Source of the DNA: Paramecium tetraurelia
Lineage: Eukaryota
Direction: 5' to 3'
Length of the DNA: 64,000 bases
Assembly (NCBI GenBank): GCA_000165425.1
Contig: CT868010.1
Span: 186,001-250,000, forward strand
The notes under the pieces: model-generated
What the model saw: the letters and a program-made list of their open reading frames with translations, nothing else
The model's database searches: none
Told to the model about the DNA's origin: nothing
Translations under genes and position numbers: made by a program
Part shown: in pieces, positions 37,686 through 49,362 of the stretch
Layout of the letters: every line of letters starts with the position of its first letter
Position numbering within the stretch: position 1 is the stretch's first letter

Positions 37686-37759
37686 TACCTTCCAAGGGAT
37701 TCGAACCCTTGATATGCGGCTTAAAAGGCCGACGCTTTAACCAACTTAGCTAGGAAGGC
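37686..37759 (-). tRNA. tRNA-Lys(UUU)
   Basis: GCCTTCC TA GCTAAGTTGGTTAAAGC G TCGGC CTTTTAA GCCGC ATATC AAGGG TTCGAAT CCCTT GGAAGGT A; cloverleaf followed by oligo-T terminator. Confidence 0.9.
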
Positions 37760-42169: not shown

Positions 42170-42592
<423 letters not shown>

Positions 42593-43591: not shown

Positions 43592-45376
43592 ATGAATAAT
43601 TATCCTTAAAGTGGAAATTTTTAGGTTTTTCCTATTCCAGAGAACATTAAAATCTTACAAAATTTTAAGAGATGGAGGAGAACTGGCGAAAATCTGAATG
43701 GAGCTATAATGATTGGCTTACTGGAGCATTTTCAAATCAATAGTCAATCTGAAAAAATATAACAAATGATAAATAATATGCAAAGCGCCTCAGATGAACA
43801 GATCATAAAAATGAGAAATATATTAAACAACTCATTGCAATATTCGAAAGGACAATAACAATAAGATTATTTAATAGATTAACTAAAATAATAGGACCCT
43901 TTTAATATTTTCCCAAGTAAATTCATTTTGGAATACCTTAAAAGAGTAAAAGGACATGTTTCTGATGAAGCAGTCATACCAGTTTTAAAAACTCATTTTT
44001 AGGTTAACATACTAGTCATCAACGACGATTATGAAAAAAAGGCTTATACAATATTAGATCCAAAGGACAGGGATCAAATAATTTTATGCAATTTTGATAG
44101 ATATTATTATGTGATACAAAAAGAGCCTGGTCCTTAGTTATATAAGTGCCAATTCTGTTAAAAGCAAATCTCTGAGGACTATCATAAAATGAAATGCAAT
44201 CAAATTATTTGCTATTAATGCTTAAAGAAATTTTTTGAAAAAGGTAATAGCATTGTGCAATGTAAGGAGAAAAACTGCACTTAATCAATAACATTAAAGG
44301 AATTTCAAAATATCTAGAATAAACAGAAAGAAATGGAGAAATCCTAAATAAATTAATCAAACATATAAAAAACTGAAGAAAGTTAGTAATATTACAAAAC
44401 ATATTGTAATAAATGCAAAAATAGAATGAGTCAGGAGAGCTTGCTTTTACCTTTGGGTTGCTCTCATAGCTTTTGCAAAAGTTGTCTGTAACAATGCTTC
44501 AGTTTGCTTCCAAGCGGAATCGTTACATGTATCTAAACAAGCTGCAAAGGAAAATTCATTCAAAAAGATTTGGATTCTTTTATCAAAGGTTAGAGTTTTA
44601 AACCAATAGAACCACCACCAACATAAATAAATAAAAATTAAACCTAAAACATGAGTTAATATATAACTCCATTAGGTAATTAAGAACCGGTTTATTAATG
44701 CGAGGGCTGCTTTAAGGATTATTAGTAATCATCTATTTATACATCTGAATGCTTACACAAGTTTTGTAAAATATGTTGTGATAAGGAGATTTCCAAAAAC
44801 ATCAGTTGCTTTTAATGTTACAAAGTAAATTGTGGGTATAAGTTAAAGATTGAAGATATTTAAAAATACTTTTATAAAAAAATTAAAGGCAAGACTTTTG
44901 GTGAATGCGCTAATTGTAAATAGGAATGCAAGATTTTTGAGTCCTTTCAAAATAGCTGTTATCATTTAATTTGTTATAGTTGTGTCAAATAGATTTACAC
45001 AGAGGGCCTTAATCCACAATGTAGGTAATGCAAAGCTTCGATCATTTCAAATGATTTAGACGATTACTATCTACCACAAGCTTCATAAGAAATTCAATAA
45101 TTCGAGACTATTGAAACCAATATCAAACCAGCTTCTTGTACATTTTGCAATTCTCCTTTTACGGATTACAATTTATAACAAGACATACCTTGTTCACTTC
45201 ATACTCTAGGATCTTGTTGTGTGATATTTCCATCAAACTGTCCATAGTGTCAAATTGGTTCTTTGATTATTGAGAAATGTAATTTGCATATTAATTTTTT
45301 AGAAAAACTAAAATTTTATTTATTGCAAAATACTATGGATAGATTTTATTTTGCCTCTGAGAGCTCGATTAAATGA
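43592..45376 (+). CDS. Protein with five tandem RING-like zinc fingers and a degenerate OTU-like N-terminus
   Basis: CNKC...CSHSFCKSC...C, CEGC...CLHKFCKIC, CANC...CYHLICYSC...CRQC and two more Cys clusters; TGA 45374-45376. Confidence 0.8.
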
Positions 45377-45850
45377 AGAATTCTTTGTTATTATCATCAT
45401 TTATTTTTATTAATTTATATCATTAAAAATAGTCAGCAATGAAATTTATTGATGTTCTAGCCTACATTAGAATTGGGTATTAGATAAATAAACCCAATTT
45501 GAGAATTTAAGATTGGAGATCCAAATTGTAATTTAGATAGAAATACATTTATTATATTAATTAATAAATTTCATAATATAACTAACAATATTTTTTACAT
45601 AAATACAATCTTTCATTGTCTATTATTTCACATTTTTTTATTTCAAAGCCTAATAGTTAAAGTCAGGAATTGATTTAATTCACTGCCATATATGTTGTAA
45701 GCATATTAGAAAACATATAAATGATTTTAAATGATAAAATATTAAAGAATTTATATTTTGTAAAAATGCACAAAATAAAAGAGAACCAATTGATTTGATG
45801 CAAAAATAAATTATCTACACTTAATAATTATTATTATCAAAAAATAAAAA

Positions 45851-45918
45851 GGGATTGGAAAGAGTCGAACTTTCTTATTCTTTATGAGGACTAATGAATG
45901 CCACCTTGGCACAATCCC
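45851..45918 (-). ncRNA. tRNA-like element, copy 1 (68 nt)
   Basis: GGGATTG TGCCA-AGG-TGGCA TTCATTAGTCCTCATAAAGAATAA GAAAG-TTCGACT-CTTTC CAATCCC then TTTTT. Confidence 0.75.
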
Positions 45919-46653
45919 TTTGTTCTGATTTAAATTCTCTTTCAAGTGTTTAAATACATTTTTGTAAACAATTCTCTCTCATTATCCACTCCAACAAAAG
46001 TAAACGCCGATAATTATGCGTGCCTTTGTATTACTAAAACTTTATTTACTATTTTATTCACTAAATGTTGTTTGATGCATTTAAAGTATCCATCATACAA
46101 TTATTTATTGATCATGTTATAAATTGATAATCTGTATATTATATTGATTTTAAGCTATCAACCTAAAGTATTTGTGTTGTTGAGAGTTTTTTCAGTTGAT
46201 GAGGACGAGAAAACTGTTGACACAAGTTGTAATAAAAAAAATTGGAAATAATTTATTTTTCTGGTTTCTTCTGATCAGGGAAAATTTATTAATAAATATC
46301 AAATGATTGGCCTAAAAGGAGAAAATCAAGGCTGAATCTGGTAATTATGGAAGGAAAGAATGATGACATTGCATTGTTTATGGTTCTATAATTTTTTAGA
46401 GTAGTCAGATAAATTCGATAATGTTTATATCTTAAGAATTGAAGGGTTATAACTTATAGTATACTATCATGGTATAGACTAATAGGATTATTACAAGAGT
46501 TATTAAAAGAAGGTGGGAGCATGATTTATAAAAATATGTTTTGTTTTGAGTTAAAAAATCAATTTTATTGCTTGAATACTCGAATATCTTAAATATCTAA
46601 TTAAGATATAAAGGATTATCGAGGGTAATTAATCATTTGGAGCAAAATAAAAA

Positions 46654-46722
46654 GGGGTCGGAAAGAGTTGAACTTTCTTTTTTATTCTTTGGACTAATAA
46701 ATGCCACCGCTGGCACAACCCC
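46654..46722 (-). ncRNA. tRNA-like element, copy 2 (69 nt)
   Basis: GGGGTTG TGCCA-GCGG-TGGCA TTTATTAGTCCAAAGAATAAAAAA GAAAG-TTCAACT-CTTTC CGACCCC then TTTTT. Confidence 0.75.
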
Positions 46723-46877
46723 TCAATATCCTGTTAAAGAAGTAAGAAATGAGTATATATAGTTTTGTTGTTATGTTGCAAAAGAGAAGCGAAATAGAAG
46801 AGCTTATAAGGTAAGGATGAGATGGGGGGGTGACAGAATAAGTATTGGAAGGTGTAATTTATAATAATAATATTGTG

Positions 46878-49362
46878 ATGATAAAAGATGATAATTATGA
46901 AAGGGAATTTGAGTTAAAAGAGTTGGAAATTGAGACAAGGAACGCAGTTCAAGTAGATTTATAAGATTTAGCTAGTTTCAAGACCTGCTAAATGGTTGTG
47001 TAGCTCATAATCTGACGAAGAGAAAAGAGCTTTTTGAGTCATTTGAAGTTGAGGTGGAGGAGAAGGTTCCGGTTTTATAAGACTTGGATTCGGTTCGAGT
47101 GATGACGGAGTAGATGCAGACGATGCAAAAGAATCTATAGAGTAAGTACACTTTGATAAAGAGAACGAAATTGCTGTTTGAAAAGAGGGTAAATTAGTTA
47201 AGGGAAACTTTGATGAATATTCGAGTGAAGGATTTCGAAGTGAATGATGATTCAGTAATAAAGGAATTGCATTAAGCGAATAAGAGGATGTTGGAGTTTT
47301 AGTAATTGTCGGAGAAATTCAGAAAAAACTAACTGAAGCGCTAGGAGATGCAATAGAAGGAGTTGGAGCATGAATAGGAGTAGCTTCGAAAGTAGTAACA
47401 ACATATCTTGGAATTGAGAATGGAGAATTAGAAGTTACTAGATAAAATATAGTAATTGGATTTAGAGGAATAAGAAAAAAGAAGGAGATTGCATGAATGT
47501 TTTTAGACAAGTGAGTACATTGAGTTTTTTACTGAGGTGCAAATGTTATAATAAGACAAGGAGGTTTCGACAAACTCGAATGATCAATCTAGATAATTAG
47601 GCAGAGATAAATAATCGACGAGACATGAGATAGTGACGATGATGGATGAATTTTATAATAACTAAAACATCCATCAATTGAGTGAAGAGATAAAGGAGTT
47701 TTACAGATCCATGGTTGAGTAATTGAAGGTTCAAACCCAAACATACAATGCTTTGATTGAAGAGAAAGCTCTGAGGAAGTTACAGTTAGAAGAGGTGGTT
47801 GAGGAGATTAACAGATTGAAAGAATATAATTGTAATACATCTCAGCAAGATATAAGTGTGATCAATTAGGATGGTTCGATTACTGCAACCAACATGGAAG
47901 TGCCCTAAGTGATCCACGATAATAATCAATTAAGTAACTATGTGAAACAAAATCAAATGTGTTTATTAACCATCCATATGAAGGCCATTGATATGATTTC
48001 AAGACTTTGTATTGGATTGATCTGGTTGAGTGAGACATCCAAAATGGTGCCAAAATCTCTGGACAATCTATGCTCCAATTATCTGAAGGGACACTCTAAA
48101 GCGGAAATTAAATTATTTATACCCAAGAAATACATGGGCAATCCAAAACCTTAGAAATATGGCTCATTTATATCCATTATCAATAGAAACAAGAATGAAA
48201 TCAGTCCGAAAGGCAGCAGCACTAATATTATGACAACAACCATGAACAATTAAGATAAAACGTTTGAGAATGAATAGTTGATTCAGTGTTTGGCTAGATT
48301 TAAGCAATTGAAGAATGGATACGAATAGATCTAGCTTACTTGGATGGCACTGGTTAAGAATGATTTATTAACCTATAAATTTGTTAAGGATTTCAACTTT
48401 GACTAGATTGAGATCAATCAGCCTGTTTAAGATATTATACTACAATTGCATATTGTTTATGCTGAATTGATTTCCAAGATCAATTACTTCCAACATTATG
48501 AATACTAATTTGCATATTTCAGAGACATCGTGAAGATGGCGAATCAATCCAAATAAAAGATCAAAACCAATATCTTTAATAACAGTCATAAACTATGTGA
48601 TTCTACCCATTTGAGTAGTAGTTACACTCCGAATAAATACATTGAAACAACTTACAAGGGACAATTGAAAAGATTAACCAATCCTCAATTAGAGGAAGAT
48701 GAACCTTTATATACCCAAGACAATGTGAAGAAGATCTAAAAAACTAGTGATGAAACCAAATTCCATTAATTTTTTATCTAACAATCCAGCATTATCTAAC
48801 GTAAATCTCCATTATTGCATGAAAAACTCATATCTTAAACCTTATAAACCATTGATTAGATGCGCAAAAAGGAATTAGATGACAATTACCAAACCTCAGA
48901 TTAAGCTGCTTCAGACAACGATTATCTCAATTAAGAACGTAGAAATCTTAAAGGCATGCTGAGCAAGAAAATCCAATAATAACAATAATATATATCAAAA
49001 TCAGAAGAAAAGGATCTCATCTCATCAAGATCAATAATGAAGTAGGTTAGTCTGTTATCCAAAATTTCACATTGTAATTTATTTAAAATATTATAGTATC
49101 TAGAGTGAATTCCAATTAGAACTATACCCAAGTCAATAAGTCCATTCAGAGATTGAATTAAACGGTTCAAAAGAAAATGTCTGAATACTTTACTTAAGAT
49201 TAGAATTACTAGGAGAATAGGATAAGGTATCCACCTATTGAGAAGAAGGTATCATCTCGCTCTCCAGAATAAAAAAAAAAATCAATCATCGACACTTTTC
49301 ATAAGGATCTTTCTTCAATGATCATGAACTCTACCTCAAATGGTCGATCATTCCTGGCCTGA
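46878..49362 (+). CDS. Large coiled-coil hypothetical protein; 5' end uncertain
   Basis: MIKDDNYEREFELKELEIETRNAVQ|FQDLLNG... long code-6 frame with micro-introns; TGA 49360-49362. Confidence 0.7.

What the first reader, a model, noticed from the sequence alone, without database searches (positions are those of the whole stretch)
45851..46722. Tandem pair of tRNA-mimic ncRNA genes with intact acceptor and T arms but no anticodon arm
Seen: two 68/69-nt minus-strand elements about 800 bp apart, with unrelated 5' flanks. Each has a 7-bp acceptor-like stem, a TGCCA/TGGCA hairpin whose tiny loop keeps GG, a perfect 5-bp T stem with TTCRACT loop (B box), and an immediate T5 run. Stem differences preserve pairing (A-U to G-C at pair 4; U-A to U.G at pair 6). 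The middle segment is 24 nt in both despite indels, shares ATTAGTCC, and cannot form the same anticodon stem-loop (best folds give CCT vs CCA). Known: B box plus oligo-T is the Pol III type-2 signature, and D-loop GG with the T loop forms the tRNA elbow recognised by RNase P, CCA enzyme and elbow binders. Inference: a selected, non-decoding tRNA mimic family (conceptually like mascRNA or tRNA-like Y RNAs) rather than random tRNA decay.
Basis: partly seen in the sequence, partly recalled or inferred. Interest (0 to 1): 0.85.

Follow-up and report, generated by a model that had tools for sequence, protein, structure and literature searches.

The report
tRNA-derived small RNA genes in Paramecium
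Two short Paramecium genes look like transfer RNA genes that kept their ends, elbow and stop signal but lost a proper anticodon arm, so they probably make a non-decoding tRNA-shaped RNA, though no such RNA has been shown.

Summary
Two minus-strand elements, A (46722..46654) and B (45918..45851), are 803 bp apart. Both have an intact 7-bp acceptor stem, a mini D hairpin that keeps GG, a canonical T arm and the same TTTTTATTTT trailer. Their flanks are unrelated.

The window is macronuclear DNA of a Paramecium aurelia-complex species. ARAGORN at default settings and Rfam at gathering score do not call the elements. On 86-nt slices the Rfam tRNA model matches both end to end at 24.3 and 25.6 bits, below the cut-off of 29, and skips the anticodon arm. 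They are therefore tRNA-derived.

All 16 arm pairs are kept in both copies, through one double and one single change (P about 0.01-0.06). Contigs of a DNA-like run indicate at least two more A-type copies. One differs at 1 of 79 element-plus-trailer bases but at 10 of 55 flank bases (P = 6e-4).

A spliced, apparently non-coding transcript lies between A and B and ends inside B. This confounds the RNA evidence for B.

Best reading: a small, selected family of Pol III-type tRNA-like genes. No discrete small RNA, CCA addition or orthologue could be shown.

The parts
46654..46722 (-). Copy A of the tRNA-like element (69 nt): 7-bp acceptor stem, U8, 4-bp D-type stem with 4-nt loop GCGG, 24-nt middle segment, canonical T arm
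   Evidence: Sequence; cloverleaf is the MFE fold; Rfam tRNA 24.3 bits on an 86-nt slice; own model 99.8 bits; ARAGORN only at -ps80 or in mitochondrial mode, as Trp(CCA)
46644..46653 (-). Trailer of copy A, TTTTTATTTT: discriminator U plus a likely Pol III terminator
   Evidence: Sequence; identical in copy B; lies inside the 65-nt contig at about twice the baseline depth in run X16
45851..45918 (-). Copy B of the tRNA-like element (68 nt): same plan, D-type loop AGG, T loop UUCGACU, 24-nt middle segment with a 4-nt insertion and a 4-nt deletion relative to A
   Evidence: Sequence; alignment; fold; Rfam tRNA 25.6 bits on an 86-nt slice; own model 95.8 bits; ARAGORN at -ps as Arg(CCU)
45841..45850 (-). 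Trailer of copy B, TTTTTATTTT
   Evidence: Sequence; first 10 bases of repeat family D1
45866..46545 (-). Spliced transcript between copy A and copy B whose contigs end inside copy B (at 45866, 45876 and 45883 in three runs); probably non-coding or an orphan ORF
   Evidence: Contigs of X17 (45866..46545) and X20 (45876..46218) lack 26 nt; X19 covers 45883..46239 unspliced. Longest ORF is 136 aa, with no Pfam family and no homologue
46024..46049 (-). 26-nt GT..AG intron of that transcript; it sets the strand
   Evidence: 26 letters left out at 46023 in X17 and X20; the minus-strand sequence starts GTA and ends AG

Best explanation
A and B belong to a small multicopy family of tRNA-derived genes of RNA polymerase III type in a Paramecium aurelia-complex macronuclear genome.

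Inferred mechanism:
1. TFIIIC binds the internal B-box (T arm) and the weaker A-box word.
2. Pol III starts near G1 and stops in the T5-A-T4 trailer.
3. The roughly 70-nt product folds into a tRNA-like L shape. The acceptor stem stacks on the T arm, and the two Gs of the mini D loop meet the T loop to form the elbow.
4. It is trimmed, and probably CCA-tailed, by the tRNA end-processing enzymes.
5. It cannot decode in the normal way. The connector is 1 nt, the D loop is 3-4 nt, and the anticodon region differs between copies in both stem and loop.

Selection therefore acts on the acceptor/T-arm/elbow module and on the terminator, not on an anticodon. The product would be a non-decoding tRNA look-alike that occupies or titrates a protein recognising the tRNA top half, or that yields 3' fragments.

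Shown: the sequence, its tRNA homology, intact arms, pair-preserving changes and element-limited conservation. Inferred: transcription by Pol III, processing and any role.
For: - tRNA homology. RF00005 matches both copies over model positions 1-71 at 24.3 and 25.6 bits (E 0.0016 and 0.00068 for those slices). Acceptor and T arm align; the anticodon arm is skipped.
- Gene-like boundaries. Likeness between A and B begins at G1 and ends after the shared TTTTTATTTT. Flanks are at random identity: 30% and 26%, against a shuffle mean of 28%.
- The genuine tRNA-Lys(UUU) gene of the window is followed by the same kind of T-run/A/T-run trailer.
- B-box words score 8 (A) and 9 (B) of 11, and A-box words 8 (A) and 9 (B) of 11, against consensuses recalled from memory. 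tRNA-Lys scores 11 and 10.
- Arms are intact: 16 of 16 pairs are standard in both copies. All three stem differences preserve pairing, one of them a double G-C/A-U change. In a simulation, three random stem substitutions keep all pairs in 1-6% of trials.
- The T-loop difference is A/G at the position that is a purine in tRNAs. The D-loop differences spare GG.
- More copies. In run X16 a 65-nt contig over 46644..46708 has depth 121.6 against about 65 beside it. A 695-nt contig (depth 32) matches 46679..46777 with 11 other letters, only one of them (46709, D loop) inside the element. A 1485-nt contig (depth 20.5) joins 46297 to 46644.
- For that second copy, 1 of 79 element-plus-trailer bases differs against 10 of 55 5'-flank bases (Fisher P = 6e-4).
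Against: - No discrete ~70-nt RNA, Pol III occupancy or CCA end has been seen.
- The only RNA contigs over an element (copy B) belong to, or cannot be separated from, a spliced longer transcript.
- An 80-nt contig of run X20 (45858..45911 followed by adapter-like letters, depth 10.5) is only a hint of a short cDNA.
- Covariation rests on two sequences and is not testable by the shuffle control (245 of 500).
- The extra copies are inferred from contig depth and pieces of one run, not from assembled loci. Gene conversion between copies could mimic selection.
- The middle segment carries indels, as a decaying pseudogene would.
- No orthologue from another species could be examined.
- A-box and B-box matches are weaker than in the real tRNA gene.
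Confidence: 0.5

Rival explanations
1. Dead tRNA genes. A and B are non-functional pseudogenes of an ordinary tRNA gene. They were duplicated after the anticodon and D arms had already decayed, and are kept alike only by youth or gene conversion.
For: - Sub-threshold tRNA scores of 24.3 and 25.6 bits, below the gathering score of 29, and no default ARAGORN call.
- Indels and different 'anticodons' (CCA against CCU) in the middle segment.
- C at the position 3' of the CCU triplet in B, where tRNAs have a purine (the rule is recalled).
- No small RNA shown.
Against: - Both copies share the same derived architecture, yet their flanks are at random identity. Either the split is old and the arms were maintained, or only the element was copied.
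- All 16 arm pairs are kept, with one compensatory change.
- The terminator is identical in both copies.
- A further copy differs at 1 of 79 element bases against 10 of 55 flank bases.
Confidence: 0.22
2. DNA or cis-RNA elements serving the neighbouring Pol II unit. The elements would act as TFIIIC/Pol III-bound boundaries or roadblocks. Alternatively B would act as a mascRNA-like 3'-end processing signal, framing the spliced non-coding transcript that starts about 100 nt after A and ends inside B.
For: - Contigs of three RNA-type runs from three studies end at 45866, 45876 and 45883, at or just before the T arm/B box of copy B (45874..45858). They start near 46545, about 100 nt downstream of copy A's trailer.
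- The transcript is spliced.
- Its longest ORF has no family and no homologue.
- It would have a 3' untranslated part of about 220 nt, against a reported mean of 44.6 nt in P. tetraurelia (PMC5485702, passages read).
Against: - Contig ends are not RNA ends, as states.
- The contigs run about 35-50 nt into the tRNA-like element instead of stopping at its 5' end, as RNase P cleavage would predict.
- The compensatory change lies in the acceptor stem, outside the A and B boxes. That points to selection on an RNA fold rather than on a protein-binding DNA word.
- Each element has its own terminator.
- No match to the Rfam mascRNA-menRNA family at E up to 10.
Confidence: 0.12
3. Atypical but decoding tRNAs. 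The A type would be a tRNA-Trp(CCA)-like molecule with a weakened or extended anticodon stem, and B a tRNA-Arg(CCU)-like one.
For: - ARAGORN at lowered thresholds, and for A in mitochondrial mode, draws cloverleaves with these anticodons.
- The loop of A reads G-U-CCA-A-A, with U before and A after the triplet.
- The stretch between D stem and T stem is 25 nt, only 2 nt more than in a standard tRNA (the standard numbering is recalled).
- A preprint reports one 4-bp-anticodon-stem tRNA-Trp(CCA) among eight Trp genes of P. biaurelia (10.1101/2023.10.09.561518, whole text read). Its figure and supplements were not visible, so identity with this family is unknown.
Against: - Closely related copies carry different triplets on non-equivalent stems.
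- The connector is 1 nt and the D loop is 3-4 nt, without the usual conserved D-loop bases.
- The loop-closing position of A is an A.G mismatch.
- B has a pyrimidine 3' of the triplet.
- Scores are below the thresholds of both callers.
Confidence: 0.08
4. A tRNA-derived SINE-like mobile element.
For: The element carries an internal Pol III promoter-like head. Copies have unrelated flanks, so only the element appears to have been copied.
Against: - There is no tRNA-unrelated body or tail; likeness stops at the terminator.
- No target-site duplication: the longest words shared by the 40 nt upstream and 60 nt downstream are 5-6 nt and not adjacent to the element.
- One further copy shares about 82% identity over 55 nt of 5' flank, which indicates DNA-level duplication.
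Confidence: 0.03

Closest known systems
Canonical cytosolic tRNA genes (Rfam RF00005), for example the tRNA-Lys(UUU) gene at 37686..37759 of this window
   Same: 7-bp acceptor stem; 5-bp T stem closed by G-C; UUCRACU T loop; GG in the D loop; internal B-box word; oligo-T trailer directly after the discriminator.
   Different: One-nucleotide connector; 3-4-nt D loop; no conserved 5-bp anticodon stem with 7-nt loop; 24-26 bits instead of 68.2 bits for tRNA-Lys.
mascRNA / MEN-beta tRNA-like small RNAs of vertebrates (Rfam mascRNA-menRNA; properties recalled, not tested here)
   Same: A tRNA-shaped RNA with good acceptor and T arms and a poor anticodon arm. Copy B sits at the 3' end of a spliced, apparently non-coding transcript.
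   Different: No sequence or structure match in Rfam at E up to 10. The elements have their own B box and oligo-T terminator. Copy A is not inside any transcript seen. Release by RNase P is not shown.
tRNA-like partner RNA of the trypanosomatid signal recognition particle (sRNA-76 / sRNA-85), and gammaherpesvirus tRNA-like TMER heads (both recalled)
   Same: Pol III-made, non-decoding tRNA look-alikes in a protist or a virus.
   Different: No homology was tested or expected. Those RNAs have known partners or downstream miRNA hairpins; none is seen here.
tRNAs with compact cores: tRNA-Pyl and mammalian mitochondrial tRNA-Ser(UCN) (recalled)
   Same: One nucleotide between acceptor and D stems, a very small D loop, an anticodon stem that can extend beyond 5 layers, and a short variable region.
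   Different: Those tRNAs have a fixed anticodon and a dedicated synthetase. Here the anticodon region is not conserved between copies.
tRNA pseudogenes
   Same: Sub-threshold tRNA scores and a degenerate anticodon arm.
   Different: Arms, terminator and pairing are maintained while flanks are randomised or about 18% diverged.

Membership tests
tRNA (Rfam RF00005, canonical cloverleaf) | 7-bp acceptor stem plus an unpaired discriminator | tested here: met
   7 of 7 standard pairs in both copies, with U after the stem
tRNA (Rfam RF00005, canonical cloverleaf) | 5-bp T stem closed by G53-C61, with a 7-nt loop U54-U55-C56-R57-A58 | tested here: met
   GAAAG-UUCRACU-CUUUC, exact in both copies
tRNA (Rfam RF00005, canonical cloverleaf) | Two-nucleotide connector (U8, N9) and a D arm with a 7-11-nt loop carrying A14, G18G19 and A21 | tested here: not met
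   One connector nucleotide; loop of 4 nt (GCGG) or 3 nt (AGG); only GG is kept
tRNA (Rfam RF00005, canonical cloverleaf) | 5-bp anticodon stem and 7-nt loop with U33 and purine 37, the same in related copies | tested here: not met
   The stems are not equivalent between A and B. Loops are GUCCAAA and GUCCUCA. The Rfam alignment skips the arm in both
tRNA (Rfam RF00005, canonical cloverleaf) | Score at or above the curated threshold, or a default caller's call | tested here: not met
   24.3 and 25.6 bits against a gathering score of 29. No hit at gathering score. ARAGORN at default makes no call
Pol III type-2 (tRNA-type) gene | Internal B box and A box | tested here: inconclusive
   B-box words score 8 (A) and 9 (B) of 11; A-box words 8 (A) and 9 (B) of 11. 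tRNA-Lys of the window scores 11 and 10. The consensuses are recalled and their N positions count as matches
Pol III type-2 (tRNA-type) gene | Run of four or more T directly downstream | tested here: met
   T5-A-T4 after both copies, like the T-run after tRNA-Lys
Pol III type-2 (tRNA-type) gene | Pol III/TFIIIC occupancy and a discrete primary transcript | not testable with these tools
   Only contigs of public runs could be laid; they cannot show starts, ends or levels
mascRNA-type tRNA-like RNA | Match to the Rfam family | tested here: not met
   No such hit at E up to 10
mascRNA-type tRNA-like RNA | Lies at the 3' end of a Pol II non-coding transcript and is released by RNase P | tested here: inconclusive
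   Copy B is overlapped by the 3' end of a spliced transcript. The contigs run into the element, and copy A is not in a transcript. Cleavage is not testable here
tRNA-derived SINE | tRNA-related head followed by an unrelated body and tail, flanked by target-site duplications | tested here: not met
   Likeness ends at the terminator. There are no flanking direct repeats beyond 5-6-nt words
tRNA pseudogene | Changes accumulate without regard to pairing, at the rate of the flanks | tested here: not met
   The 3 stem changes all preserve pairing (P 0.01-0.06). One further copy has 1 of 79 against 10 of 55 differences (P = 6e-4). Few sequences, so the result is provisional

The most novel reading that the evidence does not exclude
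Paramecium maintains a dedicated family of Pol III-made, CCA-tailed tRNA mimics without an anticodon function. These engage a tRNA top-half-binding factor. One member doubles as the 3'-end or termination module of a spliced non-coding Pol II transcript. This would be a ciliate counterpart of the MALAT1-mascRNA arrangement that arose independently from a tRNA gene.
Probability: 0.15. Interest if true: 0.75.

Novelty: new member of a known kind. Interest (0 to 1): 0.45.

Why it matters
Non-decoding tRNA look-alikes with a proven role are few, and I found none described for ciliates. Six full-text searches turned up no such family. The paper most likely to bear on it, Chen et al. 2009 (RNA 15:503), is not held.

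If the family is expressed and conserved across the P. aurelia complex, it offers three things:
- a compact natural example of selection on the acceptor/T-arm/elbow module alone;
- a probe for what reads that module in a ciliate;
- through copy B, a possible link between a tRNA-like element and the 3' end of a Pol II transcript.

If it is not expressed, it is an ordinary tRNA-gene relic, and a caution for annotation thresholds.

Tried and rejected
- Whole-genome search: no genome is held for this window.
- Metagenome scan with the pattern TGGCA, a 20-30-nt gap, then the T arm. It returned 40 loci. In 36 the match lies inside an ordinary bacterial or phage tRNA gene of many isotypes: Leu, Ile, Trp, Met, Arg, Gln, Lys, Pro, Asn and one undetermined. 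The 4 without a tRNA call (L014, L017, L019, L040) and L007 were read, together with two Trp loci, and none shows the family's D hairpin or AUUAGUCC. The T arm sequence itself is therefore generic and no family member was found.
- Scan of prokaryote genome contigs with the D hairpin plus AUUAGUCC pattern: 0 matches.
- Earlier notes of this scan, by place, sequence and words: nothing relevant.
- The Rfam search of the 1.2-kb region at E up to 10 missed the tRNA likeness; its best hit was SNORD19 on the opposite strand at 21.5 bits, E 0.51, judged chance. Only the 86-nt slices showed the tRNA match.
- No contig of runs X17, X19 or X20 covered copy A (46580..46835). Contigs cannot show absence, so this counts neither way.
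- The 136-aa ORF of the spliced transcript as a real gene: no Pfam family and no homologue among proteins of 74-238 residues. An ORF that crosses the intron runs on without a stop past the last covered base, so it was rejected.
- A plus-strand reading of the 26-nt gap was rejected: there is no GT..AG on that strand, but there is on the minus strand.
- ARAGORN at lowered thresholds also 'finds' overlapping plus-strand tRNA-Ile and tRNA-Ser at the same sites. Those settings are too permissive to assign an isotype.

Full report
**Source.** The window reads as ciliate nuclear DNA. Long ORFs open only when TAA and TAG are read as Gln. A 944-aa E4 ubiquitin-ligase ORF is 82% identical to a Paramecium pentaurelia protein and 72-74% to P. 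sonneborni proteins. G+C is 26-32%. No whole genome is held for it.

**Observation.** Reading 45700..46900 on the minus strand shows both elements exactly as described.
- Copy A runs 46722..46654 and copy B 45918..45851.
- Each has a 7-bp acceptor stem, a single U, and a GCCA/UGGC stem. The stem can be extended by a U-A pair. Its loop is GCGG in A and AGG in B.
- Then follow a 24-nt middle segment, a GAAAG/CUUUC stem with loop UUCAACU (A) or UUCGACU (B), the 3' acceptor strand, and TTTTTATTTT.
- The alignment gives 91% mean column identity over 70 columns.
- The 80 nt on either side are at random identity: 30% and 26%, against a shuffle mean of 28%.
- The ungapped repeat found mechanically is 45841..45905 against 46644..46708, spacing 803.
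- A covariance model of the two copies finds nothing else in the window with filters off.
- Both sequences fold into the cloverleaf as their minimum-energy structure, with z -2.4 and -2.1.

**Relation to tRNA.**
- ARAGORN at default settings and Rfam at gathering score find only the genuine tRNA-Lys(UUU) at 37686..37759 (68.2 bits).
- A 1.2-kb Rfam search at E up to 10 also missed the elements.
- On 86-nt slices, where the filters are laxer, RF00005 matches each element over model positions 1-71. Scores are 24.3 bits (A, E 0.0016) and 25.6 bits (B, E 0.00068), below the gathering score of 29.
- In those alignments the acceptor stem and T arm are aligned. The D stem is aligned in B, and the anticodon arm is replaced by an unaligned insert.
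- ARAGORN with lowered thresholds calls B tRNA-Arg(CCU) and A tRNA-Trp(CCA). It also calls A mtRNA-Trp in mitochondrial mode. The same settings produce overlapping plus-strand calls, so they do not assign an isotype.
- The elements are therefore tRNA-derived. They have a compact core and no conserved anticodon stem-loop.
- In A the middle can form six A-U/U-A pairs around a 9-nt loop, or a 7-nt loop GUCCAAA closed by A.G.
- In B a U-to-C change, a 4-nt insertion in the loop and a 4-nt deletion next to the T stem force a different register, with loop GUCCUCA.

**Gene-likeness.**
- The shared sequence begins at G1 and ends after T5-A-T4.
- The real tRNA-Lys gene of the window is likewise followed directly by a T-run, an A and more Ts.
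- Against consensuses that I recall (TRGCNNAGTGG and GGTTCGANTCC), the elements score 8 (A) and 9 (B) of 11 for the A box and 8 (A) and 9 (B) of 11 for the B box. tRNA-Lys scores 10 and 11.
- There are no target-site duplications.

**Constraint.**
- All 16 pairs of the three arms are standard in both copies.
- The three stem differences are one double change (G-C to A-U, pair 4) and one single change (U.G to U-A, pair 6).
- With only two sequences the tool's shuffle control is uninformative (245 of 500).
- A simple simulation of three random stem substitutions keeps all pairs in 1.1-5.7% of trials, depending on transition bias.
- The single T-loop difference is A/G at the purine position, and the D-loop differences spare GG.

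**More copies.** I laid contigs of four public runs on 45300..47200. Run X16 covers everything at about 65-67 and behaves as DNA.
- A 65-nt contig over 46644..46708 has depth 121.6.
- A 695-nt contig (depth 32) matches 46679..46777 with 11 other letters. Seven are listed. Only 46709 (the second letter of the D loop, C to U on the minus strand) lies in the element. The others lie in the 5' flank.
- A 1485-nt contig (depth 20.5) joins 46297 directly to 46644.
- The depths add up (65 + 32 + 20.5), which suggests at least two further A-type loci identical to A over 46644..46708.
- For the first of these, 1 of 79 element-plus-trailer positions differs against 10 of 55 flank positions (Fisher P = 6e-4).
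- This is indirect: one run, contig depths and partial pieces. Gene conversion is an alternative to selection.

**A transcript between the copies.**
- Contigs of X17 (45866..46545) and X20 (45876..46218) lack 26 nt at 46024..46049. X19 covers 45883..46239 unspliced.
- The missing piece is GTAAAT...CAAAG on the minus strand and has no GT..AG on the plus strand. A spliced minus-strand transcript therefore starts about 100 nt after copy A's trailer, and its contigs end inside copy B, at or just before the T arm.
- Its longest ORF (136 aa, 46522..46115) has no Pfam family and no homologue, in a database that does hold Paramecium proteomes.
- That ORF would leave about 220 nt of spliced 3' untranslated sequence. 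P. tetraurelia 3' UTRs average 44.6 nt (PMC5485702, passages).
- I read it as a non-coding or orphan transcript.
- The intron at 46953 (23 or 30 nt) is GT..AG on the plus strand. The plus-strand gene to the right therefore starts near 46883, and copy A sits between two divergent units.
- As a result, RNA contigs over copy B do not show a small RNA.
- An 80-nt X20 contig covering 45858..45911 followed by adapter-like letters (depth 10.5) spans the element from U8 to the end of the T stem. It hints at a short cDNA but is not decisive.

**Relatives elsewhere.**
- A metagenome scan for TGGCA, a 20-30-nt gap and the T arm gave 40 loci. In 36 the match is an ordinary bacterial or phage tRNA of many isotypes. 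The other four, and L007, lack the family's hairpin and AUUAGUCC.
- A scan of prokaryote genome contigs for the D hairpin plus AUUAGUCC gave nothing.

**Literature.**
- Six full-text searches found no description of such a family in Paramecium or other ciliates.
- I read passages of the Oxytricha ncRNA screen (PMC3177221). Its Arisong RNAs are PSE/3'-box snRNA-like dumbbells and are unrelated.
- I also read passages of the Tetrahymena ncRNA survey (PMC3273799).
- I read the whole text of a preprint that notes one 4-bp-anticodon-stem tRNA-Trp(CCA) in P. biaurelia, and tRNA-like paralogues in Blepharisma (10.1101/2023.10.09.561518). Its figures and supplements were not visible, so I cannot say whether that gene belongs to this family.
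- Chen et al. 2009 (RNA 15:503), the genome-wide ncRNA survey of P. tetraurelia, is not held and may bear on novelty.

**Verdict.**
These are tRNA-derived, Pol III-type genes whose acceptor stem, T arm, elbow and terminator look maintained while the anticodon region drifts. That fits a non-decoding tRNA look-alike better than free decay.
- Expression, processing and orthology are not shown. One copy is entangled with a Pol II transcript.
- I put 0.5 on the selected tRNA-like RNA family, 0.22 on plain pseudogenes, 0.12 on a cis or boundary role for the neighbouring transcript, 0.08 on an odd decoding tRNA and 0.03 on a SINE-like element.
- Novelty: a new member of a known kind (tRNA-like small RNA genes).
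- Interest is moderate, 0.45.

Noticed in passing
window 45866-46545 (-), intron 46024-46049: A well-covered spliced transcript with a 26-nt GT..AG intron. Contig depths are 32 in X17 and 46.3 in X20, above the neighbouring genes' contigs. Its longest ORF (136 aa) has no family and no homologue, so it may be a ciliate long non-coding RNA or an orphan gene.
   Followed up: partly
window 46953-46982 (+): Two forms of one plus-strand intron: 23 nt left out in run X17 and 30 nt in run X19. Both are GT..AG with the same 5' site. The 7-nt difference would shift the frame if this part is coding. It lies in the 5' part of the gene whose long ORF starts at 47102.
   Followed up: partly
window 46257-46297 and 46644 onward: A contig of run X16 (depth 20.5) joins 46297 directly to 46644. 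A paralogous locus therefore lacks the 346 nt that here hold the start of the spliced transcript.
   Followed up: no
window 42170-42592 (+): An intron-less histone H3 ORF (140 aa) with seven TAA/TAG codons read as Gln; recognised by eye from the translation.
   Followed up: no
loci L001-L040 (metagenome contigs): The T arm GAAAGUUCRACUCUUUC, preceded 20-30 nt upstream by UGGCA, recurs in dense bacterial or phage tRNA gene arrays (up to 13 tRNA genes in 1.25 kb, for example L004) across at least nine isotypes. It is therefore a generic A+U-rich T arm, not a family signature.
   Followed up: partly
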